A stretch of DNA of 64,000 nucleotides from Candidatus Levyibacteriota bacterium (GTDB lineage: Bacteria; Patescibacteriota; Microgenomatia; Levybacterales; UBA12049), in the NCBI GenBank assembly GCA_003152105.1, contig PLZJ01000003.1, forward strand, positions 134,899-198,898. The letters run 5' to 3'. The position numbers and the translations under genes were made by a program. Shown piece by piece: positions 15,847 through 41,239 of this stretch (position 1 is its first letter; each line of letters opens with the position of its first letter). The notes beneath the pieces are model-generated. The model made no database searches. It worked only from the letters and a program-made list of their open reading frames with translations, and had not been told where the DNA came from.

Positions 15847-15848
15847 TA

Positions 15849-21826: not shown

Positions 21827-21832
21827 TACTAT

Positions 21833-22549: not shown

Positions 22550-22755
22550 GTCAAATGGTTCATTAAAAATAGGATAAAATAAAGTGAACAGGTTATTATT
22601 ACAGGGTATAAAAGCTTTCTAGCTCGTTGTATATTCTCAGTTTTATTAATTGAAGTAAATTCTAACAATAATAGGGCAAAAATCGTAATTAGTGTAATTG
22701 CAATTATAGCAAAATTACGTAAAACATATTCATAATTAAGGTAAGAAAAAAACAT
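22546..22755 (-). CDS. small membrane protein
   Basis: 69 aa, two hydrophobic helices. Overlaps downstream gene start by 4 nt. Confidence 0.3.
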   Translation of the reverse strand: MFFSYLNYEYVLRNFAIIAITLITIFALLLLEFTSINKTENIQRARKLLYPVIITCSLYFILFLMNHLT

Positions 22756-22906
22756 AATTTAATTATAGCAATAAACTGATAAATAAATATTAGCTATAAA
22801 TAGTTGAATGAAAATTATAAATTTATTTAAAAATAACTCAAAACATCCCAGTATAAAAGAATAGGATTAAGTTATATAATATTGATTACAAAATTATTAT
22901 GTTAAT

Positions 22907-27255: not shown

Positions 27256-27723
27256 TTACGAAACTTTATGAAGATTTCTTTTTCGCATTAAAAAGAATGT
27301 CCCAATAGCTAAGAATCCTGCAATTGCACCAAGTGTTGTGCTGAATTCTGGAACTGAGAAATTAACTACTGCAAAGTTTATAACAAGTGAATCAGTTGTT
27401 ACTAAATTATTGACACTTGCAGATCCACCACCGGATTGAGACCCTTTGGTACCAGTAACTGAAACAGTTTTTCCAATGACGCACCCGTCGGATTCTGGAA
27501 TTGAAAAACCATAGCTTCCATTTGATAGAGTAGTAGTACTGTGTGAAAACCCGTTACAGGTTTCTGTTACGGATACTCCTGAATCAACGTGATTTGTTGC
27601 ATCTTTCACAACACCTGTAATAGTAGTTATTACTTGTGGTCCTGCGGCAAAAGTTGAAAGAGGAAAAGCAAGCGATGCAATTATAAGACCTGCAGTTGGA
27701 AGTAGTGATTTTTTAAGTGTCAT
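27256..27723 (-). CDS. secreted protein with PEF-CTERM (PEP-CTERM variant) sorting signal
   Basis: N-terminal signal peptide (LLPTAGLIIASLAFPLSTFAAGP). C-terminus ...NFSVPEF-STTLGAIAGFLAIGTFFLM-RKRNLHKVS is a VPEF tripeptide plus TM helix plus basic cluster. This is the PEP-CTERM architecture recognised by exosortase/archaeosortase. Confidence 0.6.
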   Translation of the reverse strand: MTLKKSLLPTAGLIIASLAFPLSTFAAGPQVITTITGVVKDATNHVDSGVSVTETCNGFSHSTTTLSNGSYGFSIPESDGCVIGKTVSVTGTKGSQSGGGSASVNNLVTTDSLVINFAVVNFSVPEFSTTLGAIAGFLAIGTFFLMRKRNLHKVS

Positions 27724-28302: not shown

Positions 28303-29499
28303 CTAAGGAAGGCTTGAAAAAAGATTAATTGTTTTATTTACTTCAAGAAGTGGAGTGGAAACATCTTCAGATAAATAGTGCAGCGACCCATGCAACGGAT
28401 ATATATCTGCATTATCAAACGCCTCATCAATTCGTGAATTTGCAAATAATACTTCCGCTGTATTTATGTCACCCGTTGAAAATGCAGTTGCGACGTTATT
28501 GTCATGTAGCCGCATACTGTCTACGATATAGACGACCTTTTTTTCACCATCACGAAGCTCTACTTCAGCAGGTGAAATGGGGTAAAACATATCTCGTGTT
28601 ATTTCAAGTGGCGTAACAAAAAGATTGTTTTGATCGGCACCGATTAAGCGCTGCTTATATTCTATTTCTTTTTTCCCACCGTGCTCTCTTCCTGTATATG
28701 TTTGTCCATGCATAAACGTCATCCATAATCCATTTCGTTTGACAAACGATCCTCCAATACCCGTTTTTACATTATTAAATCCATCAATAATCGGAAAACA
28801 TACTTCATCAAGTTTTATTGGACTATCTGGAAATTCATCTTGTACGTGATACACACTAAATCTGTTCGTATTACCTTGTGCTAGATTATCTTCACGAACC
28901 ATAAAAATAGCACTGTCTGCTGTAGCAGATAAAATCATGGTGTTTTTTCCAATAATACTTCGCATTACAACTGGCGGCTTTGCAATTACCATACCATCTT
29001 TGTCTTTATATATGCGAACAATCATTGGGTGATATTCAGTTGACTGGTTTGGTGGTACGGCAGTTCCTCCAGATACTGATTCGATTGTCCCATCAGGTCC
29101 AACGAGCGTTATACCATCTCGTAAATCTTCGTAGTTCCAAAGCTCCTCAGGAGACTTAGAACGATCTGGCATGCTTCCAGTTGGATCTGGGATAATAAGG
29201 GGCCCTACATCTACACCTGAGCAGGTACGAATTCGATACTCATTATAATCAACTCCATCCTCAACTGTGCCCAAATTGATAATTTGTCTGGCTAAATACA
29301 ATCCAATACCACTATGGTAACTTGCGTTAAACGCGTCCCCAAAAAGCATACGAGCTTGTATCCTATCTCCAATAACAACACTCTTTCCAACATATCCTCT
29401 GGAGATTTCAAGTTTTTCTTGCGTGGTTAAAGAAGGAGTTGGATTTATTCCAACTTCAATAGGAGAAAATGTAGAACCTGTTTCTTGCAAAACTGGCAT
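28303..29499 (-). CDS. uncharacterised cytoplasmic protein (398 aa), GC-elevated island
   Basis: Long clean ORF with noticeably higher GC than the flanks. No TM, no signal peptide, no recognisable motif. Last gene of a three-gene minus-strand set. Confidence 0.5.
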   Translation of the reverse strand: MPVLQETGSTFSPIEVGINPTPSLTTQEKLEISRGYVGKSVVIGDRIQARMLFGDAFNASYHSGIGLYLARQIINLGTVEDGVDYNEYRIRTCSGVDVGPLIIPDPTGSMPDRSKSPEELWNYEDLRDGITLVGPDGTIESVSGGTAVPPNQSTEYHPMIVRIYKDKDGMVIAKPPVVMRSIIGKNTMILSATADSAIFMVREDNLAQGNTNRFSVYHVQDEFPDSPIKLDEVCFPIIDGFNNVKTGIGGSFVKRNGLWMTFMHGQTYTGREHGGKKEIEYKQRLIGADQNNLFVTPLEITRDMFYPISPAEVELRDGEKKVVYIVDSMRLHDNNVATAFSTGDINTAEVLFANSRIDEAFDNADIYPLHGSLHYLSEDVSTPLLEVNKTINLFSSLP

Positions 29500-29593
29500 A
29501 TTTCCTTGTATATCTAAGGTTGATACAACCTGATGAGTTTGTCAATAAGAAAAGGGGATCAAATACAATTTAAGGCACGCCAACTCTTTTTAT

Positions 29594-30322
29594 CTAGTAG
29601 CCTAATTTTTGTGCTTCTTCATATGAAACTTTATAATACCGCTCTGCAAGTTGTGCTCCTAAATAAACAAAATGAGGATTTCTGTAACTTGGGAATAGGG
29701 GAATCATAGGTTCTTTATCTGATTCTGGATTATATGAGTCCGTTACGTGTTCAACAAGCGAATATCCGCTTAATCCTTTGTGGTCTTGTAAAAACGTTCT
29801 TGCCTTAACAGCAAGATCAAGCAGTCGCACATCTTGATTTATCGTACCTTCTGTATGAGTAACTTGTGCTTCTTGATTTAATTCATCGTTTAATGTTCCA
29901 TTTAGTAATGCCTCTCCAAGTGCAAGTGGCAGTCGAACCATATCAATTCCATAGGAAAAATCTGAGCTAGAAACTGCATAGGGCATATCATTTGAATGGA
30001 ATATATGACCAATCATCATTTCTTGCACCAACTGCTGATCTCTAACCATCGCTGTTGCAATTTCTCGAGTTGATGGTGGACGTCCTAATTTACTAAATTC
30101 ATCATTTCGAAGTACTTCTAGACCAGATTCTCTAAATAATTCTGGGTATCTAAGTGGAAATGACAAGGTATTTTGGCATCGTGCCAGTAGCAAATCGGTC
30201 ACTCTTCTAAAATCTTTGTTACTAATATCTGCACTTTGTTGCTGTTCACGAACAAACAAACTTGTCCGCGACGTATCAAGGTGCGTTTGCTCTAAGTCTC
30301 TCCAAGAAGAATCACGTTCCAT
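29594..30322 (-). CDS. uncharacterised cytoplasmic protein (242 aa), GC-elevated island
   Basis: Clean ORF in the GC-elevated region, no recognisable motif. Confidence 0.5.
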   Translation of the reverse strand: MERDSSWRDLEQTHLDTSRTSLFVREQQQSADISNKDFRRVTDLLLARCQNTLSFPLRYPELFRESGLEVLRNDEFSKLGRPPSTREIATAMVRDQQLVQEMMIGHIFHSNDMPYAVSSSDFSYGIDMVRLPLALGEALLNGTLNDELNQEAQVTHTEGTINQDVRLLDLAVKARTFLQDHKGLSGYSLVEHVTDSYNPESDKEPMIPLFPSYRNPHFVYLGAQLAERYYKVSYEEAQKLGY

Positions 30323-30425
30323 ATAAGATGCTATTATAGTATAAATGCTATAGGATTACAAATGAGGCCATATTATTATGTAAGGCAATAGCTAACATGA
30401 GTTACTACTTCTCCTAATACTTAGG

Positions 30426-30782
30426 TTATTTCAATCCTGAATCGGAAGTAGGACTCTGTGAATCGTTATCATTCGTGCTATCAACTACAATCAAGTGAAT
30501 TGTTCCAGTTTTTGAATGTTTCCCAATTAAATCGAATATCGTTTCTTCTAAAGATTTTTCAGCAGGTTTTGAACTAGAAAACTTTGGAATAGTATATGTT
30601 ACTCTGGGAACTGCATCTAAAACATCCTTAACAGGCGTCAAATCATGCAAGTTACCATCTGAATAAAATCCAGCGTCAATTGCTTTTTTATAATTAATCA
30701 TTCTTTGTGTAGGCACAAATTCCTTCCCTTTATTCATAGTGGCATTATAGCAAAAACTGTGTAAAAATATCTTATATAACAA
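30426..30782 (-). CDS. uncharacterised small protein (118 aa; true start may be the internal Met at 30737)
   Basis: ORF in the island. A TATAAT-like box (gctataatgcc) lies just upstream of the internal ATG (MNKGKEF...), so the N-terminus is uncertain. Confidence 0.4.
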   Translation of the reverse strand: MLYKIFLHSFCYNATMNKGKEFVPTQRMINYKKAIDAGFYSDGNLHDLTPVKDVLDAVPRVTYTIPKFSSSKPAEKSLEETIFDLIGKHSKTGTIHLIVVDSTNDNDSQSPTSDSGLK

Positions 30783-30826
30783 AAAGCAGTAAAATGTATT
30801 AAAATGGCATAAATTAACTTATAGTA

Positions 30827-30855
30827 TTGACAGTTGACCTCACATTTACTACAAT
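30827..30855 (+). promoter_or_regulatory. sigma70-like promoter (TTGACA-N17-TACAAT) in the divergent intergenic region
   Basis: ttgaca at 30827-30832 and tacaat at 30850-30855 with 17-nt spacing. A second tacaat lies at 30863-30868 immediately before ATG 30869. Confidence 0.3.
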
Positions 30856-31834
30856 TCCAAAATACAATATGGCAAGAGCTGAAAATGATCAACCACAACA
30901 AGAAAGCTTCTTAAGTAAAAGGATAGGAATGTTTCGTAAAAAAGGGATATTTTCTCCCAGTCCCGTCCAAACTGCTGATGCTGACAAACCACTCTCAGCG
31001 CAACTCCTAGGGGTAAATATGCTTGAGAGCTCAGAAGAAAATATTTCTTGGGATAAATTTAAATTTTATTTCTCAGCACTTCCTCTTTCAATCGAACAAT
31101 TAAATCCAAGTCGCGCTGGATTTGGAGATTTGTATGTAGCGCAAAGAAACTCAGGTCAACCTATAACGGTAGTTCCAATGTATATAAAGGAATGGAAAAA
31201 GGGACATCATGGATTCCATGAAGATTTACTTCTCATTCTGGCACTTAATCATCATGATCATGTTGTTGGAATGAGAACGATAAATATGAAATTTTCTGGA
31301 CCAGTAATTCAATCTGAAGGAGCAGTTGCTTCAGCTATCTGTGATGAAGGAATTGCAAGCGTCTTAGAACAAGTAAGAGATCGAACAATGCATGAACTAC
31401 TTACTAAGCTTCGTCGTGAAGGAAAAGGAATTAAGGCAATTAAACACACTGTGCAAGATGAAAATAAAGGAGCACTTGAAAAGTTTCAAAGCGAAGCACG
31501 TTTACATCCAGAAGATCCATTATTTGCAATGAGATTTGAGCATGCAAGAGAAGATAGACCAAGATGGGAAACGCTTTTTAGTCCAAGTAGTCAAAGACAT
31601 ATTAATCCAAACCAACAAATTTGGATTCAACCAAATGACTTGTTATCGAGAGGATTTTGTTCACCTGAAAAAACGGTGTTTATGATGAAAAAACAAAAAG
31701 GACAAGAGGGTACTGTGTGGGATTTTGAAGAATTTTCTGATCAAACAATTATCAGTACAATGCAACAAAGATATCTAGACAAACCTTACTTAGCAACTCA
31801 AATGAAACTTGCATTGACACAAAGACCTGAATAA
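30827..31834 (+). CDS. uncharacterised protein with protein-kinase-N-lobe-like motif order (likely real start at ATG 30869)
   Basis: The ORF track starts at a TTG that coincides with the -35-like hexamer, and the in-frame ATG at 30869 (MARAEND...) is more plausible. Ordered motifs GFGDLYVA / VVPMYIK / HEDLLL / LNHHDHVVG resemble Gly-loop, beta3-Lys, alphaC-Glu and the HPN-like segment of kinases. No HRD/DFG motif found. Confidence 0.45.
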   Translation: MTVDLTFTTIPKYNMARAENDQPQQESFLSKRIGMFRKKGIFSPSPVQTADADKPLSAQLLGVNMLESSEENISWDKFKFYFSALPLSIEQLNPSRAGFGDLYVAQRNSGQPITVVPMYIKEWKKGHHGFHEDLLLILALNHHDHVVGMRTINMKFSGPVIQSEGAVASAICDEGIASVLEQVRDRTMHELLTKLRREGKGIKAIKHTVQDENKGALEKFQSEARLHPEDPLFAMRFEHAREDRPRWETLFSPSSQRHINPNQQIWIQPNDLLSRGFCSPEKTVFMMKKQKGQEGTVWDFEEFSDQTIISTMQQRYLDKPYLATQMKLALTQRPE

Positions 31835-31869
31835 CAAATTAAGCAGTAATCGCTACTTATATCACTTAG

Positions 31870-32469
31870 TTAGGATTTTTGATATACCTTTTTAAATTGC
31901 GGAAGATCAGCTGCTCTCTTCTCTCTCTTATATCCAAGTTCTACGGCTAGGGCACTTGACCATCCGCTTCGTACTATTGAAGTATCATTATCATCGCTTG
32001 CACTTGCTGCATCAATAATTCTGGCGATTACCGTTTTTCCATCAAAATCCTCTGGATATCTTCTCATAACATCTCTAATAACCCGGTCAGACATAAGACC
32101 AAGTGTTGAACCAAGACCTTTCCCTTCAAATCCTGGTCTTGTAAGCGAGGCAGACGTAATAGTAATTACTCCGTTTTTCGTATGATTAAAATAAAATGAT
32201 CTTCCTGAAACTTCTCCACCCATTAGCACTACTTTACTTAAATTATTATCAGTATACAGAGAATCGGCAAGTGCTGAAGGCTGTGTAAGCGACAGCACAA
32301 GTCGTGCCTGACGAGCATAAATGTTATGCACATAGTACGCCAGTATATAAGGAGTGCGTTCAATGATTTGTTCATGAGATCCAACAAAACCATTAGAATC
32401 ACTAGATCTTTCAAATGGAAGTGAAGCTGATCTTCCTTTTATTGCTGGTCTATTCTCGAGTCCTATCAT
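31870..32469 (-). CDS. GNAT-family N-acetyltransferase-like protein (putative)
   Basis: FEGKGLGSTLGLM resembles GNAT motif A (R/Q-x-x-G-x-G/A). C-terminal ...SALAVELGYKRE resembles a GNAT terminal strand. 199 aa. Confidence 0.4.
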   Translation of the reverse strand: MIGLENRPAIKGRSASLPFERSSDSNGFVGSHEQIIERTPYILAYYVHNIYARQARLVLSLTQPSALADSLYTDNNLSKVVLMGGEVSGRSFYFNHTKNGVITITSASLTRPGFEGKGLGSTLGLMSDRVIRDVMRRYPEDFDGKTVIARIIDAASASDDNDTSIVRSGWSSALAVELGYKREKRAADLPQFKKVYQKS

Positions 32470-32566
32470 AGAACTCCTATTATAGCATAAAATAAGCCTA
32501 TAATAAAGTGTTGTTGAAATAAACCAGCTTCAATGAAGATATTGAGAATAAGATAAAATGAACTAT

Positions 32567-33469
32567 CTATAAATCGGTTACTTGAGGAATTACTTCGAGA
32601 GATACTTTTTTAATCGGATCTATTTCATACATGGTAGGAATGCCCATTATTGCATGATCAATTCCAAGACTATGAAGATGCTTTAATTCTTCAACTACTT
32701 TTTTTGCATCAAACTCAGGTGGCACTTGATAGAGAACTGTTTTTTCAATTTCATCATAATTTCTCCCAACATCGCTGCAATGTTTTTTTAATATATCAAG
32801 TTTTCGAACGAGTTCCTCTTCACCAGCTCTTGCAAATAAATTACATGCATCTGCATACTGTGCAACGTATCGAAGGGTCTTTTTTTCACCACCACCACCA
32901 ATTAATATTGGAGGATGTGGTTTTGAAATAGCTTGCGGATGATTCAAAGGACGGGGGAGAGTAAATTGTTTTCCAGTAAATGCACGCTCATCATCGCTCC
33001 ACATTTGCTTTGCTAGTTTTAATACATCTTCTAGTTGTTCAAATCTGACTTTAATTTCAGGAAATGGAAACCCAAGTGCTTTCGATTCACTTTCATTCCA
33101 TGCAGCACCAACACCAAAATATGCTCTTCCATTACTAATAACATCAAGCGTAGTTACTGCTTTTATTAAAAGTGCAGGTTGTCGATAGATAACTCCCGTA
33201 ACCATTGTTCCAAGTTTTACCTGTTTTGTAATACCAGCTAAATACCCAAGTGTAGTATATGCTTCAAGCATTGGCTCTTCTTCAGGACCGATATATTCTA
33301 TTTGGAAAAAATGATCCATTACCCATAAACTAGAAAAGCCGCCTTTATCAGCAGTTTGTGCAATTTTTGTAAGTATCGAATGGATTGTTTTTGGCTCTCC
33401 AGGCCAAGTGAATTTACTAATTTGAAGTCCGACTTTCATTTCTATAAGTGTAGCGCATTTTTGTAACAT
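32567..33469 (-). CDS. LLM-class (luciferase-like) F420-dependent oxidoreductase
   Basis: MKVGLQISKFTWPG...SLWVMDHFFQ...GTMVTGVIYRQPALLIKAVTTLDVISNGRAYFGVGAAW is a typical luciferase-like monooxygenase / F420-dependent TIM-barrel signature. Confidence 0.75.
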   Translation of the reverse strand: MLQKCATLIEMKVGLQISKFTWPGEPKTIHSILTKIAQTADKGGFSSLWVMDHFFQIEYIGPEEEPMLEAYTTLGYLAGITKQVKLGTMVTGVIYRQPALLIKAVTTLDVISNGRAYFGVGAAWNESESKALGFPFPEIKVRFEQLEDVLKLAKQMWSDDERAFTGKQFTLPRPLNHPQAISKPHPPILIGGGGEKKTLRYVAQYADACNLFARAGEEELVRKLDILKKHCSDVGRNYDEIEKTVLYQVPPEFDAKKVVEELKHLHSLGIDHAIMGIPTMYEIDPIKKVSLEVIPQVTDL

Positions 33470-33522
33470 TTGTGTAAGAAAATATAAACTCTATTGACTT
33501 ATATTTTATATAGTTATATGCT

Positions 33523-33936
33523 TTGTACACAAAACATATGGATAATAGTAAAATCATTGAGGAATTTCGAAAAAACCACGGTAAAGTAGGCGGCATGTTT
33601 GAGGGAATGAATATTTTGCTTGTGACTGCAATTGGTGCAAAATCTGGCAAAGAAATTACCTTTCCCGTTGCGTATACCATTGACGATGGTCAATATATCA
33701 TTGTTGCATCCAAAGGGGGAGCACCTGAGAATCCAAGTTGGTATTATAACTTAACTTCACATCCTCAAGTAGTTGTTGAACTAGGTGATGAAAAATTCAA
33801 TGCGGTTGCTAAGGAAACAATCAATGAAGAAAGAGAACGATTATTTGATTTACACGCAAAAGTTTATCCAACCTTCTATGAATATAAAGCAAAAACATCA
33901 CGAGTTATTCCTGTCTTTTTACTCAAAAGAGCATAA
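33523..33936 (+). CDS. Ddn/DUF385-family deazaflavin (F420H2)-dependent reductase (split-barrel)
   Basis: HGKVGGMFEGMNILLVTAIGAKSGKEITFPVAY...APENPSWYYNLTSHPQVVVELGDEKF matches the nitroreductase-family deazaflavin-dependent oxidoreductase signature (GxKSGK...NP.WY.NL). Confidence 0.7.
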   Translation: MYTKHMDNSKIIEEFRKNHGKVGGMFEGMNILLVTAIGAKSGKEITFPVAYTIDDGQYIIVASKGGAPENPSWYYNLTSHPQVVVELGDEKFNAVAKETINEERERLFDLHAKVYPTFYEYKAKTSRVIPVFLLKRA

Positions 33937-34205
33937 TATATTCTCCTAACTATTGACTTCCATAATCTCCAGAATAGTATCTCAAATGTATATTACATGA
34001 AAGTGAAAAAGAAATAATAAAAATATAGTATATGAGTGGAATGGCAGGGGGAAGAAAATAGGCGCAGAATTGCGTTTTGCGTGCGAGCCCTGGTTGGGGA
34101 TCGTGCCTATTTCTTCTTTCATGCGTATGCATGCCTGCCACTCCTTGGCATCACCTCCTTTCATAGAAATATTTTAGAATCGAACTCTGTGGTTACCCGA
34201 CGTCC

Positions 34206-34850
34206 TTACAGACTTGCTGCAACAACGGGATCCATGTCCATCATGATAACGTGGATTTCCACTTCTCCGTCGACAAGATTACCGAACATGTCACCCATAT
34301 GAAGTCGATACGAGTTGCGTATCTTTTCAGAGGCGGCGGCATCAAGACGCAACTGACATGGTCTGCATGACCGAACGTGATCCTTGAGCTCGCTACTGAG
34401 GTACGGAAATTCGTCGACGGTGAACTCTACTCTGGTCGTCAATCTCTCGAAAGGGTCATCCACCGAGGGTCGATGAGTGAGCAAATCGAACCAATCGAGC
34501 GTGAGTTGCCGATCACAGAGCGCATCCGAAAGATGGGCGACGCCGTCGAAAGGAACCACGCACGCAAAGATTGGGTTTTCGAGATAACGGTTGACATCGT
34601 TATAGAGCAACTGGCCGGGGCCGAGAACAAGAACCAGTGGGCAAGAAGTAAGAAGCTTCGAAAAGTCTTCGCTCTTATTGGCGTAATCGATGATCGACTC
34701 GAGTGAGCCGGTATCCACAACCACAACGTAGTCGCTTGGCCAGCTATCGAAATCAACCACGATCGCATCTTCACTCAAGTCCTCTGGTAGAGCCTTGATA
34801 AGTTCCTCTGAGACTCCCTCGAAAATATACACGAATCGAATTCCTTTCAC
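34206..34850 (-). CDS. hypothetical protein (214 aa) in a local high-GC patch
   Basis: Clean ORF with the highest GC in the window (~50%). No recognisable motif. Overlapping short plus-strand ORFs are likely spurious. Confidence 0.4.
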   Translation of the reverse strand: MKGIRFVYIFEGVSEELIKALPEDLSEDAIVVDFDSWPSDYVVVVDTGSLESIIDYANKSEDFSKLLTSCPLVLVLGPGQLLYNDVNRYLENPIFACVVPFDGVAHLSDALCDRQLTLDWFDLLTHRPSVDDPFERLTTRVEFTVDEFPYLSSELKDHVRSCRPCQLRLDAAASEKIRNSYRLHMGDMFGNLVDGEVEIHVIMMDMDPVVAASL

Positions 34851-35193
34851 GTGAATCAGGTTTTGACTACTCTACGATCTCTGATATTTCATGAGCACTT
34901 CTTAGTAAAAAGCCTCATCCTCTTCCTTCTCTTATTCTTTGTTTTGTTTTTAGTTCACATGCGTAACTCCGTTAACATAAAATTATCATTCCAAAATGGA
35001 AGACACTTTAAGTACCATGTAAAATGATAATCAAAGTGCCTTCCACTTGTATTTCTATAAAGGTGTTAATGAGCCAGTAAAAAAGTAAAAACAACATTTA
35101 ATAGGCAGCTTATGCCTAATTTGCTGTTTTTAGTTTAGGAATTGTATCAGAAAGCATTACATTAGTCAATTACTACAGGGTGAAAAAAGAGAT

Positions 35194-35787
35194 TTATGTA
35201 TGTACATTTTGTGACTTAGAAAATAAAGCTAAATCATCCATAGTATCAATATCAAACGCAGTTGTATTATTCACATATACGTAGTAAGACAAATTATTGT
35301 TTTTTGCACACTTTTCAAATTTTTTTAGACTGTTTCGCCCAAATAAATAGGGGAGTAGTAATGGTTTTTTCATAGCTATTGCGTTTGTTCCTGTTTGCTC
35401 TTTGGAAGAAGCAAAAACAATATCATATTTTCCAAGTAGAGTTACCATATCCTGTACATTCTGGGTCGTAACAAGAGGCAAATCAGAAGAAATAACCAGA
35501 AGTGGTTTTGATTCTACTAATAAAGAGGCTTCAGTCAACGCCTTATTATGTGTTGTTGTTTTGTCAAAAAGTGTTTTTACACCAAATTCTTTTGCTAAAC
35601 TTGCTACTTTCTTGTCTTTTGAAACCAAGTAAATGTCGTCACATACTTTTGAGTGAATAAGAGTAGCTATAACGTGAGATACCATTGATAATACCAACGC
35701 TTCTCTTTGTTCGATACTTAATTGTTTTGAAAGTCGAGACTTTGCATTTGCTAATAACTTAACAGGTATTAATACATTTACTTTCAT
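35194..35787 (-). CDS. cofC: 2-phospho-L-lactate (or PEP-derived) guanylyltransferase CofC
   Basis: MKVNVLIPVKLLANAKSRLSKQLSIEQREAL... matches the CofC/MobA-like N-terminus (IPVK.L..AKSRL). GTNAI motif. 197 aa. Immediately downstream of cofD with a 4-nt overlap. Confidence 0.8.
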   Translation of the reverse strand: MKVNVLIPVKLLANAKSRLSKQLSIEQREALVLSMVSHVIATLIHSKVCDDIYLVSKDKKVASLAKEFGVKTLFDKTTTHNKALTEASLLVESKPLLVISSDLPLVTTQNVQDMVTLLGKYDIVFASSKEQTGTNAIAMKKPLLLPYLFGRNSLKKFEKCAKNNNLSYYVYVNNTTAFDIDTMDDLALFSKSQNVHT

Positions 35788-36707
35788 ATTGCATGTAAAA
35801 CAGTTTCAGCTAATGCTTTCTTTGATAGCAGCGTTTTCATTATTGTATTGGTAATGACAACTTTTATAGCAAATCGTTCAATTTCTTTTTTTAATACACT
35901 ATCCTTCTTATCAATTATCAAAACATCGATAAAGTCTTGATACAGTTTTGCAACACCAATGGCGGATGGTTCAAATCCAAGACCTGAGAGCATCTTATCT
36001 GCTGGACCTTTAATTGTTTTTCCTGCAATTATTGGACTTATTGCTATTTTTTTAGCTTTTGCTTGAAATAACAATTCTCGCATTGTAGGAACTGCTAAAA
36101 TTGCGCCGATACTAACAATTGGATTACTAGGAGCAACAATAATACAATCTGCTCCCGCAATTGCCTCTTTTACCTCATCACTTGGGGTTGCCTGTGCGAT
36201 CCCTTTAAACCACACATCCACTACCTGATCTTTGCATTTTCTTTTTACAAAATATTCCTGAAAGGGAAATACTCCCTTTCTTGTATGTACCATTGTTGTA
36301 ATCTTGTCATTTGTCATTGGAAGAAGAGCTATGGGAATGTTATATCTTTCAACGAGTTGTTTTGTTACTTCAGTTTTTGTTTTACCGCTTTGAAGTAGTG
36401 AAGTACGTAGCAGATGTGTTGCAATATCTTTATCACCAAGCGTAAACCACGTATCAATTCCTAGTTTCTTAAGTTGAGAAAGCGTCGTATATGTGTCATT
36501 TTTTACACCCCATCCTTGTTTTTTATTATTGTTCCCAGATAGTGTATAGATAATAGTGTCAATATCAGGACATACGTATAGACCGTAAAACTCTTCGTCA
36601 TCTCCAGTATTCACGATTACGGTAATGTCTTTTGGATCAGTAACTTTGACGAGTCCTTCTAAAAATCGTGCGGCTCCAACGCCACCTGCGAGTACTGTTA
36701 TTTTCAT
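35784..36707 (-). CDS. cofD: 2-phospho-L-lactate transferase CofD (F420-0 synthase)
   Basis: MKITVLAGGVGAARFLEGL N-terminus characteristic of the CofD/YvcK family. 307 aa. Sits between cofE and cofC. Confidence 0.85.
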   Translation of the reverse strand: MKITVLAGGVGAARFLEGLVKVTDPKDITVIVNTGDDEEFYGLYVCPDIDTIIYTLSGNNNKKQGWGVKNDTYTTLSQLKKLGIDTWFTLGDKDIATHLLRTSLLQSGKTKTEVTKQLVERYNIPIALLPMTNDKITTMVHTRKGVFPFQEYFVKRKCKDQVVDVWFKGIAQATPSDEVKEAIAGADCIIVAPSNPIVSIGAILAVPTMRELLFQAKAKKIAISPIIAGKTIKGPADKMLSGLGFEPSAIGVAKLYQDFIDVLIIDKKDSVLKKEIERFAIKVVITNTIMKTLLSKKALAETVLHAI

Positions 36708-36710
36708 ATG

Positions 36711-37469
36711 CTAACGGAATAAGTCAATTTTTGCATTTCGTAAAAGCGTTTTTGCATCTGTATTTTTTTCTTGATATGCATAGCCTCGGATATGAGCAGC
36801 TGGAACTTTATCTACTTTTCCCATTACAAGTTCTGCACTTGCTGCAAGTTCATCTGCTATACCAATAACACTGGCAGAAAGCGTATACCCATACGAATCT
36901 TTTTCTCCTCTATAATCACGTATTGCCTCCATTCCTGCTACGCCAATTGCAAAATTTACTTGCCCTTCTCTCCATGGCCTTCCCCATGTATCAGAAATGA
37001 TAACCGCGACTTTTTGTACACCACTTAGTTCTTGCAGATTACTTCGAATAAGTTTTGCGGATGCATCTGGATCGCTGGGTAAAAGCGTTGCCGTGTCTGT
37101 GTTTCCAACATTTGATTGATCTATACCAGCATTTGCGCATATAAAACCTTGTTTTGTTTCAGAAATAATTACCCCATGATCCATACGAACTATTCGTTTA
37201 CTTTCTCGAAAAATCAATTCAATAAGACGTGGGTCTTTTTTAAATTCAGTTGCAAAACCTATTGCTTTATCAGAGGGTTCTATTTCGGAAAGCAAAACAA
37301 CTTGCCCTTCAGCTTTGGATACGATTTTTTGTGTAACAACAAGTATGTCACCCTCTTCTATATGAAGATTCTGTTTTTTACATGATGAAACTAAATGCAT
37401 TGCAATGTTTGAGGCTTTTGTAATTTCTCCTATATGCGTAAGAGGTGAAATAATTACTGTATCAGTCAT
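36711..37469 (-). CDS. cofE: F420-0:gamma-glutamyl ligase CofE
   Basis: EEGDILVVTQKIVSKAEGQVV and GANAGIDQSNVG motifs typical of CofE. 252 aa. 4-nt overlap with the upstream Fgd-like gene. Confidence 0.8.
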   Translation of the reverse strand: MTDTVIISPLTHIGEITKASNIAMHLVSSCKKQNLHIEEGDILVVTQKIVSKAEGQVVLLSEIEPSDKAIGFATEFKKDPRLIELIFRESKRIVRMDHGVIISETKQGFICANAGIDQSNVGNTDTATLLPSDPDASAKLIRSNLQELSGVQKVAVIISDTWGRPWREGQVNFAIGVAGMEAIRDYRGEKDSYGYTLSASVIGIADELAASAELVMGKVDKVPAAHIRGYAYQEKNTDAKTLLRNAKIDLFR

Positions 37470-38449
37470 AATGCCCTAAGATTTGGCAGTACCTCTTTTC
37501 CAAGCAGTTCTATAATAGCAGTCTGATTTTTTCCTGTTGTTTGTATAACTACCGTATCAGCATTTACCGTTGTTATCAGTGGTGCATAATTTTCAATATA
37601 ATCAGAAGCGTTTGCAACGATTGAATACCTTGAGAGGATATCTTCTTTTGAAAGCGAATCTGCTTCATCTTGCAACTGCTTTGGATCAACCGCATGATCT
37701 CGGCTAGGAGCTCTGAGCCCTCTCCAAGGCTGAATAGCCAAAAACGCTTCGTCATCATTTTGTGCATAAATTGACCATCTACTTGCTGTTACTTGAAAAT
37801 CTTTTTTCCCAATTGCTTTTGCTTTATCTCGGGTAGGTGATACAACAAGATTTGCACTGTCATCTGCATTTTTAACACTAACAATAATGCCATCTGCATG
37901 TTCAGCAGAGAGCATTCCTGATTTTGGACCTCCAGCAGCAAGAAGTATCGGAACTTTATGTAGCGGAGGGGAGTACAGTTTTACATTTTTAGTTTGATAA
38001 TACTCGCCCTTAAACGTAACTTTTTCTCCGCTTAATAATCTCTGCATAATTTCTAATGCTTCAATCATTCGCTCTGATCGTTCTTTATATTTTGGAAATT
38101 CATACCCAAGTGGAGATTCGTTAATTGATTCACCTGTGCCAACTCCTAAACTTACCCGACCATTCGAAAGTCTATCAATTGTTGCAATTGCTTGTGCAAC
38201 AACTGCTGGATGGTAACGAAAGAGGGGAGTGACAACACCTGTCATCAGTTCTATTTTTTTCGTTGCTTGTGCAACTGCGCCAAGTGTTGCAAATGCAAAC
38301 CCTGAACTTCCTTTATCCTCAACCCATGGATGAAAGTGTTCAGAAACAAAAAGCCCATCAAATCCTGCTTTTTCAGCAAGTACAGCATGTGAAACTAATT
38401 CTTCGGGCTGAAATTGTTCATGTCCTAAATAATAATAGAGTTTTTTCAT
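37466..38449 (-). CDS. F420-dependent glucose-6-phosphate dehydrogenase-like LLM oxidoreductase (Fgd family)
   Basis: LGHEQFQPEELVSHAVLAEKAGFDGLFVSEHFHPW...TPLFRYHPAVVAQAIATIDRLSNGRVSLGVGTGESINE closely parallels the mycobacterial Fgd1 N-terminal half (LGYKASAEQF..., DHFQPW, TPTFRYNPAVIAQAFAT, RVFLGVGTGEALNE). Confidence 0.75.
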   Translation of the reverse strand: MKKLYYYLGHEQFQPEELVSHAVLAEKAGFDGLFVSEHFHPWVEDKGSSGFAFATLGAVAQATKKIELMTGVVTPLFRYHPAVVAQAIATIDRLSNGRVSLGVGTGESINESPLGYEFPKYKERSERMIEALEIMQRLLSGEKVTFKGEYYQTKNVKLYSPPLHKVPILLAAGGPKSGMLSAEHADGIIVSVKNADDSANLVVSPTRDKAKAIGKKDFQVTASRWSIYAQNDDEAFLAIQPWRGLRAPSRDHAVDPKQLQDEADSLSKEDILSRYSIVANASDYIENYAPLITTVNADTVVIQTTGKNQTAIIELLGKEVLPNLRAL

Positions 38450-38508: not shown

Positions 38509-39438
38509 TTATTCTTTAAGAAGTAATATGTATAAGAATATGAGGCTTGGGATAACAAAAACCATCCCAATACCAAATGACCAAAGCATAAGTTGAAATG
38601 TTTTCAAATCAGTAAACGCGTTATATATGGTAATACTTGGATAAATAAGATAGGGCAAATGAAGGAGGGCAAAGAAAAATAATACTGCTCCCATTAAAAG
38701 AGATATCGTAAGAAATAATAATAAATGTTTTCTTGCAACAAAGAATACCAAGGAAGAAAGTAATAAGAAAATAATTATACTACTATAGATATGTAGGTTA
38801 GCATCGCTCAGTAACATCCAGGAAGAAGTGTGGATAAGATCATACATAAATAATATAAGACTTAAAACAAATATGACATATGAAAAGGAAAGTATTCTTC
38901 TGAGTAAATGGAAATCAGATTTATTTTTACTATAAAATTGATAAAACGATCCAGAAATTAATAGTATGTTTGACAAAACAAGCGCATATATAGGTAAGTT
39001 AAGATTTTGCAAAAAGAGATTAGTAGTATTTCCTGTTATCATATATACAAACCCAGAAGAAAAGAAAAGAGGAGCTAAGAAACAAGATAGAAAAAATACT
39101 ATTCTAATCAACTTCGAATCCATATCACCATAAAAAAGAAATAACATACAAGCAGATCTTACACCAAGAAATAAAAATGCTATAAGGAGCGGAACTATTA
39201 AATTCGTTCCAAAAAAATAGGTTGATTTTGGAAAAAACGTAAAAATACAGATAATAGTGAAAACTAAAAACACATTTGTCGTTTCCCAAATAGGGGATAT
39301 AGCTTGTTTTAACAAGATGTCATTTCTTAGTATTTTTGGGAATAGTAAAAAAAATGATGTTCCATATTCAATTGAAGTAAAAAGCATATACGCATATAAA
39401 AATACAAGTGGAATGAGAGCAGCTAATAATTGATACAT
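38509..39438 (-). CDS. cydB: cytochrome bd oxidase subunit II (CydB), putative
   Basis: 309-aa polytopic membrane protein immediately downstream of cydA (6-nt gap). Assigned by operon context and topology. Confidence 0.5.
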   Translation of the reverse strand: MYQLLAALIPLVFLYAYMLFTSIEYGTSFFLLFPKILRNDILLKQAISPIWETTNVFLVFTIICIFTFFPKSTYFFGTNLIVPLLIAFLFLGVRSACMLFLFYGDMDSKLIRIVFFLSCFLAPLFFSSGFVYMITGNTTNLFLQNLNLPIYALVLSNILLISGSFYQFYSKNKSDFHLLRRILSFSYVIFVLSLILFMYDLIHTSSWMLLSDANLHIYSSIIIFLLLSSLVFFVARKHLLLFLTISLLMGAVLFFFALLHLPYLIYPSITIYNAFTDLKTFQLMLWSFGIGMVFVIPSLIFLYILLLKE

Positions 39439-39444
39439 AATAAA

Positions 39445-40779
39445 TTATAGATCAAGCTTATTCTTTTTATAATGTCGTTTTAAAATCCAAATAGTAACTG
39501 CAAATAAAAAGATATAAAGAGTAGGGAAGAGGTATCCAAATGTTGCAACTGAGGTAGAAGTTGTAAACGCTTGTTTTGTTGTCATAATGCCTCTTATTGC
39601 AAATGGTTGACGACCAACCTCAGTTAATATCCATCCAAATTCAACTGCACAAAATGAAACCACACCAGAGAGAAAAAGTAACAGAAGCATTATTTTTGAA
39701 AAGGCAAATGCTTTTTTAAAACGGGCAAGCAGTAGGAAGAGTAGGGGAATGATCGTGATAAATATGCCACTGCCAACCATAAAATCAAACATATAATGAA
39801 TCCAAAGTGGTGGCCATAATGTTGGATTAAAATAATTAAGTCCCAGAACTCTTGCCTGAGTGGAACCAAAAGAAAGGAAACTAAGTAAGCCTGGGATGGT
39901 AAGTGCATGTAATACACCATGATTTGTTGTAATACCTAAAACTTGAAGTGGAGCATTTGTTTGCGTGGTATAAAGTCCTTCTGCTGCTGCAAGTTTTAGT
40001 GGTTCTGATTGTGCTAAATATTTTGCCGAAGAATCTCCCGTTAGACCAATTAAAAGAACAAAAATAAAACTTACACAAACCAAAAAAGTGATAGTTTTTT
40101 TATAATACATTTTGCGTTTTAATTCTTTTTTATCATTTATTTTTGATTTAAATAAAAATAACGCGTACATTCCTGCAAAAAATAAACACGTTGTTAGATA
40201 ATAAGAAACGATTGAGTGAGTGGTTTCTGTTGGCGTTGCTTGATTAAACATTGCTTTTATTGGATCTATGTTACTTGCTATACCATGTTTATAAGTAAAT
40301 CCAGCTGGGGAGTTCATAAATGCATTTGCTGTTGTAATAAAAAAAGCTGAAGCAACCGAACCCAGAACAATCGGCAATGAACAAAGCCAATGAATATAAG
40401 GATTTTTAAATCGCTTCCAGGTAAAAAGATAAATACCAAGAAAAATTGCCTCAATAAAAAAAGCAAATCCTTCCAAGAAAAAGGGGAGTCCAATTACTTT
40501 ACCAGCAAGTGCCATAAACGTTGGCCAAAGCGTCGAAAGTTGAGTTGATATTATCATTCCGGAAATTGCACCTGTAACAAACAATACGCTCATCACATAA
40601 GACCACCTCTTTGCCATTGTTGTATATAAAATATCATGTCTTACTATACCAAGAAGTTCAGAAAGTGAAACAAGTAGGGGAATGCCAACACCAAGGAGAG
40701 CAAAGATGATGTGAAACCCAAGTGAATCTCCCATTAATGTACGACCATAGTCTAGTTGCATATAGTAATTATAAGACAA
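39445..40779 (-). CDS. cydA: cytochrome bd ubiquinol oxidase subunit I (CydA)
   Basis: GFHIIFA N-terminal helix. LPFFLEGFAFFIEAIFLGIYLFTW matches the CydA consensus ([22 protein letters not shown]). 444 aa, 9 TM. Confidence 0.8.
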   Translation of the reverse strand: MSYNYYMQLDYGRTLMGDSLGFHIIFALLGVGIPLLVSLSELLGIVRHDILYTTMAKRWSYVMSVLFVTGAISGMIISTQLSTLWPTFMALAGKVIGLPFFLEGFAFFIEAIFLGIYLFTWKRFKNPYIHWLCSLPIVLGSVASAFFITTANAFMNSPAGFTYKHGIASNIDPIKAMFNQATPTETTHSIVSYYLTTCLFFAGMYALFLFKSKINDKKELKRKMYYKKTITFLVCVSFIFVLLIGLTGDSSAKYLAQSEPLKLAAAEGLYTTQTNAPLQVLGITTNHGVLHALTIPGLLSFLSFGSTQARVLGLNYFNPTLWPPLWIHYMFDFMVGSGIFITIIPLLFLLLARFKKAFAFSKIMLLLLFLSGVVSFCAVEFGWILTEVGRQPFAIRGIMTTKQAFTTSTSVATFGYLFPTLYIFLFAVTIWILKRHYKKNKLDL

Positions 40780-40876: not shown

Positions 40877-41239
40877 ATGTGGATCCCTCTATTTCTAATT
40901 GTTCTTGGTTTGTTAGCAGGAGGATTAAGTGGATTAATCGGCATTGGGGGTGGCATTATAATAGTACCCGCTCTTGTGTATCTATTTGGTCTTTCTCAAC
41001 AACAAGCTCAAGGAACAACTCTTGCTCTTCTTCTTCCTCCAATCGGCATCCTTGCTGTATGGCAATATTATAAACATGGATATGTAGATTTTAGGATCGC
41101 ACTATTTATTATTATTGGTTTTTTGATAGGTAGTCTTTTTGGTTCCCGTTTTGCAACAGCACTTCCTGCAAATGTCTTATCAAAAATATTTGGCATTACA
41201 CTACTTCTTGTATCTCTTAAAATGCTTTTCACAAACTAA
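40877..41239 (+). CDS. TauE/SafE-family (sulfite exporter-like) membrane protein, half-size single-repeat form
   Basis: GLIGIGGGIIIVPALVYLFGL motif typical of TauE/SafE (DUF81). Only 120 aa with ~4 TM, i.e. one repeat unit. Confidence 0.5.
   Translation: MWIPLFLIVLGLLAGGLSGLIGIGGGIIIVPALVYLFGLSQQQAQGTTLALLLPPIGILAVWQYYKHGYVDFRIALFIIIGFLIGSLFGSRFATALPANVLSKIFGITLLLVSLKMLFTN

What the first reader, a model, noticed from the sequence alone, without database searches (positions are those of the whole stretch)
28303..38449. ~10 kb compositionally distinct (GC-elevated) island bounded by AT-rich native genes
Flanking genes (glycosyltransferases, cydB onward) are roughly 28-33% GC by eye. Between ~28.3 and ~38.45 kb the coding sequence rises to roughly 40-50% GC with different codon preferences, for example frequent GGC/GCC/CGC codons. 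The island contains only uncharacterised proteins plus the F420 module. No integrase, transposase or flanking direct repeat was seen, so the transfer mechanism is unclear. A local ~0.9 kb patch (33.95-34.9 kb) is even more GC-rich.
Basis: seen in the sequence. Interest (0 to 1): 0.6.

Follow-up and report, generated by a model that had tools for sequence, protein, structure and literature searches.

The report
False GC island hiding one foreign gene
The supposed 10 kb foreign "GC island" uses the same codons as the rest of this small AT-rich bacterial genome, and only a 0.8 kb single-gene insert, sitting inside an otherwise conserved coenzyme F420 operon, is truly foreign in composition.

Summary
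The 10 kb island is not a compositional island.

- **GC level.** 28303-38449 is 37.3% GC (36.1% without the patch), not 40-50%. The rest of the window is 32.7%, and the glycosyltransferase block on its left is 25.9%.
- **Cause of the rise.** The rise sits in codon positions 1 and 2, so it reflects amino-acid content. GC3 is 0.225 against 0.210 (p=0.17). Synonymous codon use correlates r=0.96 with the rest of the window. GGC/GCC/CGC are not enriched, and the dinucleotide signature is ordinary.
- **Mobility marks.** I found no integrase, no adjacent tRNA and no flanking repeats above chance.

One part is really foreign: 34034-34821 (788 bp, 50.8% GC). It carries a 214-aa gene with GC3 0.56 (z=11) and a 111-nt hairpin. 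Other assembled contigs reproduce it. It sits between cofC and a luciferase-like oxidoreductase (LLM) gene, and those two genes are adjacent in five related F420 operons. Its protein has only four distant homologues, which share an invariant C...HxxxCxxC.

The host is a Levybacteria-like member of the Candidate Phyla Radiation (CPR). A cofC/D/E, LLM and ddn module next to cydAB is unusual gene content for that group. It was probably acquired long ago, but composition gives no evidence for that.

Verdict: ordinary composition effect plus one recent single-gene transfer. Interest is low to moderate.

The parts
28303..38449 (.). The claimed island. It is 37.3% GC, with native GC3 and native codon usage everywhere except 34034-34821.
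28303..32469 (.). Five genes of unknown function: 28303-29499(-) 398 aa, 29594-30322(-) 242 aa, 30426-30782(-) 118 aa, 30827-31834(+) 335 aa, 31870-32469(-) 199 aa. Codon use is native (GC3 0.21-0.26).
   Evidence: No hit in Pfam, NCBIfam, PADLOC or PHROGs. Four of the five were also searched against PDB sequences, with no hit. Composition. The same genes were called in the public assembly.
32567..33469 (-). F420-dependent luciferase-like oxidoreductase (LLM) of the Rv1855c family. It is the orthologue of the gene that directly follows cofC in relatives.
   Evidence: TIGR03560 scores 280 bits against a cutoff of 231. 66-72% identity to L086, L087, L093 and L094.
33523..33936 (+). Ddn-like F420H2-dependent quinone reductase (FDOR-A). 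Composition is native (GC3 0.25). It is inverted here and placed differently from its position in relatives.
   Evidence: PF04075 E=1e-36. TIGR00026. 61-63% identity to L086 and L093, where it lies elsewhere in the module.
34034..34821 (.). The truly foreign segment: 788 bp at 50.8% GC with sharp edges. The 5' end of the gene runs on to 34832 or 34850.
34036..34146 (-). A 111-nt GC-rich branched hairpin at the outer edge of the foreign segment, 60 nt downstream of the foreign gene and followed by a T-rich run. It is probably the gene's terminator or an RNA stabiliser.
   Evidence: Folding energy -47.2 kcal/mol, z=-5.8. Unique in the window. No Rfam match.
34206..34850 (-). The foreign gene, 214 aa (the public gene call is 208 aa, starting at 34832). 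The predicted fold is an alpha/beta N-terminal domain plus a helical C-terminal part. C112, H158, C162 and C165 are invariant (C-x45-H-x3-C-x2-C).
   Evidence: GC1/2/3 = 0.605/0.340/0.558. Homologues P0037-P0040 with E from 1.8e-10 to 2e-5. Alignment. Structure model with pLDDT 70.9.
34851..35193 (.). AT-rich spacer (32% GC) between cofC and the foreign gene. It holds a promoter-like site on the minus strand (35169-35141) and a palindromic terminator-like hairpin (35102-35118).
35194..35787 (-). cofC (2-phospho-L-lactate/PEP guanylyltransferase)
   Evidence: TIGR03552 scores 141 bits against a cutoff of 105. PF01983.
35784..36707 (-). cofD (2-phospho-L-lactate transferase)
   Evidence: TIGR01819 scores 344 bits against a cutoff of 257.
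36711..37469 (-). cofE (F420-0:gamma-glutamyl ligase). It is single-domain and lacks the C-terminal nitroreductase domain of FbiB.
   Evidence: TIGR01916 scores 265 bits against a cutoff of 181. Length 252 aa.
37466..38449 (-). F420-dependent LLM oxidoreductase of the glucose-6-phosphate dehydrogenase family. It is below the cutoff of the Fgd equivalog model.
   Evidence: TIGR03557 scores 227 bits against a cutoff of 210. TIGR03554 scores 204 bits against a cutoff of 420.
38509..40779 (-). cydB and cydA (cytochrome bd quinol oxidase), immediately downstream of the F420 module on the same strand.
   Evidence: PF02322 and PF01654. GC3 0.235 and 0.225.

Best explanation
The 10 kb stretch is ordinary resident DNA of a small, AT-rich genome from a Levybacteria-like member of the Candidate Phyla Radiation (CPR), sampled from a wood metagenome. 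It looks GC-rich for three reasons.

1. Its genes encode soluble enzymes whose amino acids need G/C at codon positions 1 and 2.
2. It is framed by a very AT-rich glycosyltransferase cluster on the left and by membrane-protein genes on the right.
3. It contains one small insert that really is foreign.

That insert is about 0.8 kb (34034 to about 34850). It consists of one gene plus its own 3' hairpin. It was taken up recently from a donor of about 50% GC and has not yet drifted toward host composition.

The insert landed, by an unknown and probably illegitimate recombination event, at the cofC|LLM junction of a conserved F420 operon (LLM-cofE-cofD-cofC-LLM, with ddn). The same junction also carries a relocated and inverted ddn, so this spot has been rearranged.

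**Shown:** the composition statistics, the operon comparison, and the presence of the insert in other assembled contigs.

**Inferred:** that the transfer is recent, the donor GC, and the role of the hairpin as terminator.

The foreign protein is most likely a small zinc- or thiol-based regulatory or sensor protein, judged from an alpha/beta domain plus an invariant C...HxxxCxxC. This last point has low confidence.
For: **Composition of the 10 kb stretch**
- GC3 of island genes is 0.225 against 0.210 (p=0.17), while GC1 is 0.500 against 0.442.
- Gene GC correlates r=0.96 with amino-acid content.
- Synonymous codon fractions correlate r=0.955 and r=0.964 with the rest of the window.
- The dinucleotide distance is ordinary.

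**The patch is foreign**
- 34034-34821 is 50.8% GC against flanks of 33% and 30%.
- Its gene has GC3 0.558, z=11.4, and codon-use correlation 0.18.
- The non-coding hairpin is also GC-rich at 53%.

**It is a real gene**
- Codon-position periodicity is 0.605/0.340/0.558.
- Four homologues of 196-214 aa share an invariant C, H, C, C.
- The closest homologue lies on a 52% GC contig with matching GC3 of 0.55.
- The structure model has pLDDT 70.9.

**It is not an assembly artefact**
- Four contigs carry the gene.
- Two were read here: the 1.14 Mb ENA scaffold and a 4.3 kb per-run Logan contig from SRR7151521. Both are 100% identical across both junctions.

**It is an insertion**
- In L086, L087, L088, L094 and L095, cofC is followed after 13-83 bp by the orthologue of the 32567-33469 LLM gene.
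- Here 1.72 kb intervene.

**Host**
- DnaB is 70-73% identical to many Candidatus Levybacteria proteins.
- The scaffold is 1.14 Mb.
Against: - No donor sequence closer than 31% protein identity was found, so donor and timing are inferred from composition alone.
- No integrase, inverted terminal repeat, target duplication or att-like repeat marks the insert, so the mechanism is unknown.
- The relatives used for the operon comparison share only 46-72% protein identity and are of unknown taxonomy. 'Insertion here' cannot be strictly separated from 'deletion there', although composition favours insertion.
- No genome of a close relative was available to test whether the 10 kb stretch as a whole is present or absent there.
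- Gene calls outside 25.8-46.7 kb are my own longest-ORF calls.
Confidence: 0.78

Rival explanations
1. One reading: the whole 10 kb was transferred recently from a more GC-rich donor and keeps the donor's composition and codon preferences.
For: Gene GC is about 3 points above the rest of the window (p=0.005). Half of the genes have no known family.
Against: - There is no GC3 step (p=0.17).
- Codon-use correlation with the rest of the window is 0.955-0.964.
- GGC/GCC/CGC are not enriched.
- The dinucleotide signature is ordinary.
- There is no integrase, no adjacent tRNA and no repeat beyond chance at the edges.
- Neighbouring genes outside the island, such as 27256-27723 at 38% GC, are just as GC-rich.
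Confidence: 0.04
2. An old horizontal acquisition whose composition has since drifted to match the host. On this view the F420 module, perhaps together with cydAB, entered this CPR lineage as a block from a non-CPR donor such as Chloroflexota, long enough ago for codon usage to equilibrate. This is compatible with the best explanation and adds a history to it.
For: - The six-gene module recurs as a block on other contigs of 35-39% GC whose flanking genes share nothing with this window.
- Among 185,579 species genomes, the best CofD matches are at most 55% identical. They are named Dehalococcoidia, Binatia or archaea, never Levybacteria or Patescibacteria.
- DnaB, by contrast, finds many Levybacteria at 70-73% identity.
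- The closest named CofC is from Tengunoibacter, a member of the Chloroflexota.
- A 2021 review of F420 distribution lists no CPR lineage (PMC8498797).
- Cytochrome bd in CPR has been reported as rare and acquired by transfer (PMC9166423).
Against: - There is no compositional trace and no phylogeny was made.
- The genome scan works through exact peptide words and can miss relatives.
- The low-GC contigs that share the module (L008, L086, L087, L094) could themselves be CPR. In that case the module would be inherited vertically within a sub-clade.
Confidence: 0.45
3. The GC-rich patch is an assembly chimera or a contaminant fragment.
For: The composition changes abruptly, and only one organism carries the sequence.
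Against: - Four contigs carry the gene.
- The two read here, the ENA scaffold and a Logan per-run contig made with a different assembler, are identical through both junctions.
- The ORF is intact and has a plausible terminator hairpin.
Confidence: 0.04
4. The patch is a structured non-coding RNA. GC-rich intergenic regions in AT-rich genomes often are. On this view it is not a protein gene.
For: It is GC-rich in an AT-rich genome, ORFs are open in several frames, and it contains a strongly folding 111-nt element.
Against: - No Rfam family matches at gathering score, and nothing meaningful appears even at E<=10.
- There is clear three-base periodicity.
- Protein-level homologues have matching length and four invariant Cys/His residues.
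- The predicted fold is a confident alpha/beta fold.
Confidence: 0.04

Closest known systems
Single-gene 'alien' insertions recognised by atypical GC3 and codon usage (classical compositional detection of recent horizontal transfer, with gradual drift toward host composition)
   Same: There is a sharp local jump in GC, GC3, codon usage and dinucleotide signature, confined to one gene plus its 3' element. The insert interrupts a gene order that is conserved in relatives.
   Different: There are no mobility genes, no adjacent tRNA and no repeats. The recipient is a reduced CPR genome. The donor is unidentified, and the gene family has only five detectable members.
Bacterial and archaeal F420 biosynthesis operons (cofC/fbiD, cofD/fbiA, cofE/fbiB) with linked F420-dependent LLM and FDOR enzymes, as reviewed in PMC8498797
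   Same: cofC, cofD and cofE all score above the equivalog cutoffs. They are clustered with two F420-type LLM oxidoreductases and a Ddn-family reductase. Horizontal spread of such genes is well documented.
   Different: - The host is a Levybacteria-like CPR bacterium, a group not listed among F420 producers in that review.
- cofE is the single-domain, archaeal-type form.
- No FO synthase (cofG/cofH/fbiC) lies in the 64 kb window.
- The module abuts cydAB.
Integron gene cassettes (a promoterless ORF followed by a palindromic attC site)
   Same: The unit is one ORF followed by an imperfect palindrome of about 110 nt that ends exactly at the edge of the foreign DNA.
   Different: The palindrome lacks the RYYYAAC / GTTRRRY core sites. 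No intI, attI or cassette array was found among the 60 ORFs scanned with Pfam. The resemblance is in layout only.
Zinc-binding anti-sigma factors (ZAS, Pfam zf-HC2), for example RsrA
   Same: The HxxxCxxC motif and an upstream Cys are invariant across all five family members.
   Different: - The upstream Cys is 45 residues away rather than about 23-26.
- The motif lies in the C-terminal half, behind an alpha/beta domain.
- No sigma factor gene is adjacent.
- The Pfam match is not significant (E=0.069, and in one member only).

Membership tests
Recently acquired genomic island (the 10 kb stretch, 28303-38449) | GC3, codon usage or oligonucleotide signature deviates from the host genome | tested here: not met
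   GC3 is 0.225 against 0.210, p=0.17. Codon-use correlation is 0.955-0.964. The signature distance of 57-64 lies within the window's range.
Recently acquired genomic island (the 10 kb stretch, 28303-38449) | Mobility genes (integrase, transposase), an adjacent tRNA, and flanking direct repeats | tested here: not met
   None of the 60 window ORFs scanned with Pfam has a recombinase domain. The only tRNA is at 57378-57462. The longest repeats shared between the edges are 10-11 nt, which 64-158 of 200 shuffles reach.
Recently acquired genomic island (the 10 kb stretch, 28303-38449) | Absent from the orthologous site in closely related genomes | not testable with these tools
   No fetched locus contains a homologue of the flanking genes.
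Recent horizontally transferred gene (the patch, 34034-34850) | Atypical composition confined to the segment | tested here: met
   GC is 50.8% against flanks of 30-33%. GC3 is 0.558 (z=11.4). Codon-use correlation is 0.18. The signature distance exceeds 1000 of 1000 random segments.
Recent horizontally transferred gene (the patch, 34034-34850) | Interrupts a gene order that is contiguous in relatives | tested here: met
   cofC and the LLM gene are 13-83 bp apart in L086, L087, L088, L094 and L095. They are 1.72 kb apart here.
Recent horizontally transferred gene (the patch, 34034-34850) | An identifiable donor lineage with a close homologue | tested here: not met
   The best homologue is 31% identical (P0037), on a 1 kb contig of 52% GC and unknown origin. 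There is no DNA match in the plasmid, phage or viral collections.
F420 biosynthesis cluster | cofC, cofD and cofE each above the curated equivalog cutoff | tested here: met
   TIGR03552 scores 141 against 105. TIGR01819 scores 344 against 257. TIGR01916 scores 265 against 181.
F420 biosynthesis cluster | An FO synthase (cofG/cofH or fbiC), needed for de novo synthesis | tested here: not met
   No such domain appears among the 60 ORFs of the 64 kb window scanned with Pfam. The remaining 1.08 Mb of the scaffold could not be read.
Integron gene cassette | An attC with R''/R' core sites (RYYYAAC ... GTTRRRY), and intI nearby | tested here: not met
   The hairpin arms read GGAGTGGCAGG...CCTGCCATTCC, with no AAC/GTT cores. 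No integrase was found among the window ORFs scanned.
ZAS / zf-HC2 anti-sigma factor | A significant match to the zf-HC2 profile, and a partner sigma factor gene | tested here: inconclusive
   The HxxxCxxC motif is invariant. However, zf-HC2 reaches only E=0.069, and in one member. Profile comparison with an RsrA sequence that I recalled from memory gave 3.6% probability. No sigma factor gene is adjacent.
Known structured RNA family | A match to an Rfam covariance model | tested here: not met
   The only hit at gathering score is tRNA-Leu at 57378. At E<=10 only chance hairpin hits appear in 33900-35250.

The most novel reading that the evidence does not exclude
A CPR (Levybacteria-like) bacterium, from a group usually regarded as fermentative and poor in cofactors, may carry a compact F420-based route from sugar phosphate to oxygen.

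- An Fgd-family LLM enzyme would reduce F420.
- A Ddn-type reductase would pass the electrons to a quinone.
- The adjacent cytochrome bd would reduce O2.
- F420 would be finished by cofC/D/E from scavenged FO, because no FO synthase lies in the cluster.
- The recently captured Cys/His-motif gene, lodged inside this operon, would be a redox or zinc sensor taken from a neighbouring, possibly host, organism of about 50% GC.
Probability: 0.15. Interest if true: 0.6.

Novelty: new member of a known kind. Interest (0 to 1): 0.3.

Why it matters
For the scan, this is a caution. In AT-rich genomes, total GC judged by eye follows protein type and neighbouring low-GC clusters. GC3 and codon usage must be checked before calling an island.

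What is truly new is modest:
- a clean example of a very recent single-gene capture in a reduced CPR genome, with no mobility machinery;
- a tiny, unannotated protein family with an invariant C...HxxxCxxC.

The more interesting by-product is gene content. A complete cofC/D/E set, F420-dependent enzymes and cytochrome bd sit together in a Levybacteria-like genome. If functional, this would extend F420 use to the CPR and point to a simple oxygen-consuming electron route in organisms thought to lack respiration.

Tried and rejected
**RNA**
- Rfam at gathering score on the whole window, and at E<=10 on 33900-35250, gave only tRNA-Leu and chance hairpin hits. ARAGORN found one tRNA, far away.

**DNA searches with the patch**
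- Distant blastn against plasmids and phages gave no match.
- A viral-contig scan with the protein gave only a 23-residue chance match.
- The hairpin arm was not found in viral contigs, and it is unique in the window.

**Protein family searches**
- PADLOC, PHROGs, NCBIfam and Pfam gave nothing for the foreign gene or the five unknown genes.
- PDB sequence searches gave nothing.

**Structure searches with the model of the foreign protein**
- Foldseek against PDB and against viral structures gave nothing at E<=0.001, only a generic receiver- or flavodoxin-like resemblance.
- The five-member alignment was too divergent for a pattern scan.

**Repeats and mobile-element ideas**
- Several 10-21 nt inverted pairs flank the patch. 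They are not collinear as a terminal inverted repeat would be, and they do not exceed shuffles. I therefore rejected a MITE or IS origin.
- I rejected an integron cassette because the core sites are missing.
- I rejected codon selection for high expression. The non-coding hairpin is equally GC-rich, and EF-P and DnaB in the same window have GC3 of 0.17-0.19.

**ZAS membership**
- A profile comparison with a recalled RsrA sequence was uninformative.

**Synteny with close relatives**
- The genome-collection scan with CofD found nothing above 55% identity.
- The metagenome scan with the LLM gene found only module fragments.

**Literature**
- Searches for Levybacteria with F420, or with cytochrome bd, found no paper.

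Full report
**Observation.** The window is 31.7% GC.

In 1-kb windows the stretch 28.3-38.45 kb runs at 0.34-0.41 GC, with a single peak of 0.464 at 34.0-35.0 kb. The 9-26 kb region runs at 0.23-0.30 and the 39-64 kb region at 0.28-0.37.

Whole-segment values:

| Segment | GC |
|---|---|
| Island, 28303-38449 | 37.3% |
| Island without the peak | 36.1% |
| Window outside the glycosyltransferase block | 32.7% |
| Next 10 kb to the right | 32.0% |
| Previous 10 kb | 27.3% |
| Block 8748-24460 | 25.9% |

Much of the apparent left-hand step is produced by the unusually AT-rich block to the left.

**Is it a codon-usage island?** No.

I called genes by longest non-overlapping ORFs. For 25.8-46.7 kb these agree with the gene calls stored with the public assembly.

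- The eleven island genes, excluding the peak, have mean GC 0.364 against 0.333 for 41 other genes (p=0.005).
- GC1 is 0.500 against 0.442 (p=0.011) and GC2 is 0.369 against 0.346 (p=0.08).
- GC3 is 0.225 against 0.210 (p=0.17).
- Across all genes, GC correlates r=0.96 with the excess of Gly/Ala/Arg/Pro over Phe/Tyr/Met/Ile/Asn/Lys.
Its GC3 of 0.235 is as high as that of the island genes.
- Synonymous codon fractions of the left half and the right half of the island correlate r=0.955 and r=0.964 with the rest of the window.
- The supposedly frequent GGC, GCC and CGC make up 2-14%, 4-12% and 0-5% of their codon families, as elsewhere in the window.
- The dinucleotide signature distance of the island (64, or 57 without the peak) is unremarkable. 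The most deviant 10 kb of the window is the glycosyltransferase block at 100-107.
- No recombinase domain occurs in the 60 window ORFs scanned.
- The only tRNA is 19 kb away.
- The longest repeats shared by the two edges are what shuffled sequence gives.

**What the stretch contains.**

- **Left half (28303-32469).** Five genes with no match in Pfam, NCBIfam, PADLOC or PHROGs. Four of them were also searched against PDB sequences without a match. Their codon use is native.
- **Right half.** An F420 module on the minus strand:
  - an LLM oxidoreductase of the F420-dependent glucose-6-phosphate dehydrogenase family (37466-38449; TIGR03557 scores 227 against a cutoff of 210);
  - cofE (TIGR01916, 265 against 181);
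  - cofD (TIGR01819, 344 against 257);
  - cofC (TIGR03552, 141 against 105);
  - after a gap, a second F420-type LLM oxidoreductase (32567-33469; TIGR03560, 280 against 231);
  - a Ddn-family F420H2-dependent quinone reductase on the plus strand (33523-33936).
- **Downstream.** cydB and cydA follow directly on the same strand.

**The real anomaly.** A maximal-scoring segmentation puts the GC-rich segment at 34034-34821. It is 788 bp at 50.8% GC, between flanks of 33% and 30%, with z=4.6 against all windows of that length.

It holds ORF 34206-34850 on the minus strand:
- 214 aa from a GTG start (the public gene call starts at 34832, giving 208 aa);
- GC1/2/3 of 0.605/0.340/0.558;
- GC3 11.4 standard deviations above the other 66 genes;
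- codon-use correlation 0.18 with the rest of the window, with GGC and GCC each about 45% of their families;
- a dinucleotide distance larger than all 1000 random segments of the same size.

Sixty nucleotides beyond its stop codon, exactly at the outer edge of the GC-rich DNA, lies a 111-nt branched hairpin (34036-34146). It folds at -47.2 kcal/mol (z=-5.8) and a T-rich run follows it on the minus strand. It is 53% GC although non-coding. Codon selection therefore cannot explain the patch.

**Is the patch real, and is it a gene?**

Four contigs carry the 208-aa product. Two were read here: the 1.14 Mb ENA scaffold and a 4.3 kb per-run Logan contig from SRR7151521. Both are 100% identical to the window across both junctions. 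A chimera is therefore unlikely.

No Rfam family matches.

The word-indexed protein search found only the protein itself. The exhaustive HMMER search found four distant relatives of similar length (196-214 aa, 23-31% identity, E from 1.8e-10 to 2e-5). A fifth hit, a 4022-aa protein, had no aligned stretch and I disregard it.

The alignment has ten invariant positions. They include C112, H158, C162 and C165, which form C-x45-H-x3-C-x2-C.

With this shallow alignment, AlphaFold gives pLDDT 70.9: an alpha/beta N-terminal domain followed by helices. Foldseek finds nothing at E<=0.001 in PDB or in viral structures, only a generic receiver- or flavodoxin-like resemblance.

The HxxxCxxC recalls zinc-binding anti-sigma factors, but the zf-HC2 profile is not significantly matched. 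A profile comparison with a recalled RsrA sequence was uninformative. That link stays a lead only.

The closest homologue sits on a 52% GC contig and has matching GC3 (0.55). The others sit on 35-41% GC contigs with GC3 0.38-0.44. The family thus normally has roughly the composition of its host, and only here is it grossly out of line.

**Is it an insertion?** The nearest relatives of the F420 genes are contigs of 35-39% GC: L086, L087 and L088 from Logan; L008, a GTDB species genome named only 'bacterium'; and L093-L095 from JGI. Their protein identity to the window is 46-72%.

In all five that include the junction (L086, L087, L088, L094, L095), cofC is followed after 13-83 bp by the orthologue of the 32567-33469 LLM gene.

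In the window, 1.72 kb lie between them. This consists of ddn, which has native composition, is inverted, and sits at the head of the operon in L086 and downstream of the LLM gene in L093. It also includes the foreign gene with its hairpin and a 343-bp AT-rich spacer carrying a promoter-like and a terminator-like site.

The junction has therefore been rearranged, and the foreign gene is an addition.

No terminal inverted repeat, target duplication or att-like repeat exceeds chance. The hairpin lacks integron attC core sites. No DNA match exists in the plasmid, phage or viral collections. The mechanism is therefore unknown, and I infer illegitimate recombination.

The lack of any drift toward host composition implies a recent event. 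That timing is an inference.

**Host and wider context.**

- The DnaB encoded at 59218-60549 is 84% identical to one unnamed metagenome protein and 70-73% identical to many proteins named Candidatus Levybacteria, along with other Patescibacteria.
- The source scaffold is 1.14 Mb, from a wood metagenome.
- By contrast, the best CofD matches among 185,579 species genomes are at most 55% identical and are named Dehalococcoidia, Binatia or archaea.
- The closest named CofC is from a Ktedonobacteria species.
- Contigs sharing the module share no other gene with this 64 kb window.
- A 2021 review of F420 distribution lists Actinobacteria, Chloroflexi, Proteobacteria and several candidate phyla, but no CPR lineage (PMC8498797).
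- Cytochrome bd has been reported in a few CPR genomes as a horizontally acquired operon (PMC9166423).
- I found no paper linking Levybacteria with F420 or with cytochrome bd.

The F420 module and cydAB are thus unusual accessory content for this lineage. They may well have come in by an old transfer. The evidence for that is gene distribution, not composition, and I could not test it with a tree or with close relatives.

**A functional reading (inference).** According to the same review, Ddn-type enzymes reduce menaquinone with F420H2 and can feed oxygen consumption by the respiratory chain. Here the following genes are contiguous:
- an Fgd-family enzyme;
- the three F420 tail-building enzymes;
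- a Ddn homologue;
- a quinol oxidase.

This suggests a short route from a sugar phosphate through F420H2 and a quinone to O2, perhaps for oxygen scavenging in wood. No FO synthase lies in the window, so FO may be scavenged or made elsewhere in the genome.

This reading rests on family membership only. Substrates, a quinone source and expression are all untested.

**Verdict.** The finding as written is mostly an amino-acid composition effect and a contrast effect. Its one correct compositional claim is the 0.8-0.9 kb patch, which is a recent single-gene acquisition of a rare, uncharacterised Cys/His-motif protein inserted into a conserved F420 operon. This is a new member of a known kind of event. 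The presence of an F420 module next to cydAB in a CPR genome is the most interesting by-product and deserves a separate look.

Noticed in passing
window 8748-24460: A 16 kb cluster of GT1/GT2/GT4 glycosyltransferases, a flippase and an exosortase-family protein. It is 25.9% GC with GC3 0.18 and has the most deviant dinucleotide signature in the window (100-107). This is the real large-scale compositional outlier, and it creates the apparent left-hand step of the 'island'.
   Followed up: partly
window 19115-20080 (-) and 27256-27723 (-): An exosortase/archaeosortase (EpsH-family) gene. Separately, a small secreted protein ends in VPEFSTTLGAIAGFLAIGTFFLMRKRN, which looks like a PEF-CTERM-type sorting signal. 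That would be unexpected in a CPR bacterium. The motif was read by eye and not tested.
   Followed up: no
window 38509-40779 (-): cydBA (cytochrome bd quinol oxidase) lies directly downstream of the F420 module in a Levybacteria-like genome. Cytochrome bd is reported as rare and horizontally acquired in CPR (PMC9166423). Together with the Ddn homologue, it suggests a route from F420H2 through a quinone to O2.
   Followed up: partly
window 4142-7315 (-), 7530-7979 (+), 24503-26029 (+): Two GH5 cellulase-family proteins, one with a type I dockerin domain, and two CBM4_9 carbohydrate-binding proteins, in a CPR genome of about 1.1 Mb from wood. They hint at a plant-polymer-degrading or cellulosome-associated lifestyle.
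   Followed up: no
window 28303-32469: Five consecutive genes (398, 242, 118, 335 and 199 aa) with native codon use and no detectable family in Pfam, NCBIfam, PADLOC or PHROGs. Four of them were also searched against PDB sequences without a match. The 398-aa protein has one partial relative at 90% identity or more in a JGI metagenome.
   Followed up: partly
L086 2848-5145 and L094 3019-4920: In two relatives the F420 module is flanked by a PAS-domain sensor histidine kinase, with a response regulator as well in L094. In the window the only regulator-like gene near the module is the foreign 214-aa gene.
   Followed up: no
L090 and L091 (homologues of the foreign gene): One homologue lies in a thiol-redox neighbourhood (thioredoxin, glutaredoxin, DsbD, a pyridine-nucleotide disulfide reductase, a G6PD-6PGD fusion). 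Another lies three called genes downstream of a Peptidase_M50 site-2 protease. Both fit a redox-sensing or anti-sigma-like role, but there are too few cases to count.
   Followed up: no
window 40877-41239 (+): The TauE/SafE-family ORF is only 120 aa and covers positions 1-109 of a 237-position profile. It is possibly a truncated gene.
   Followed up: no
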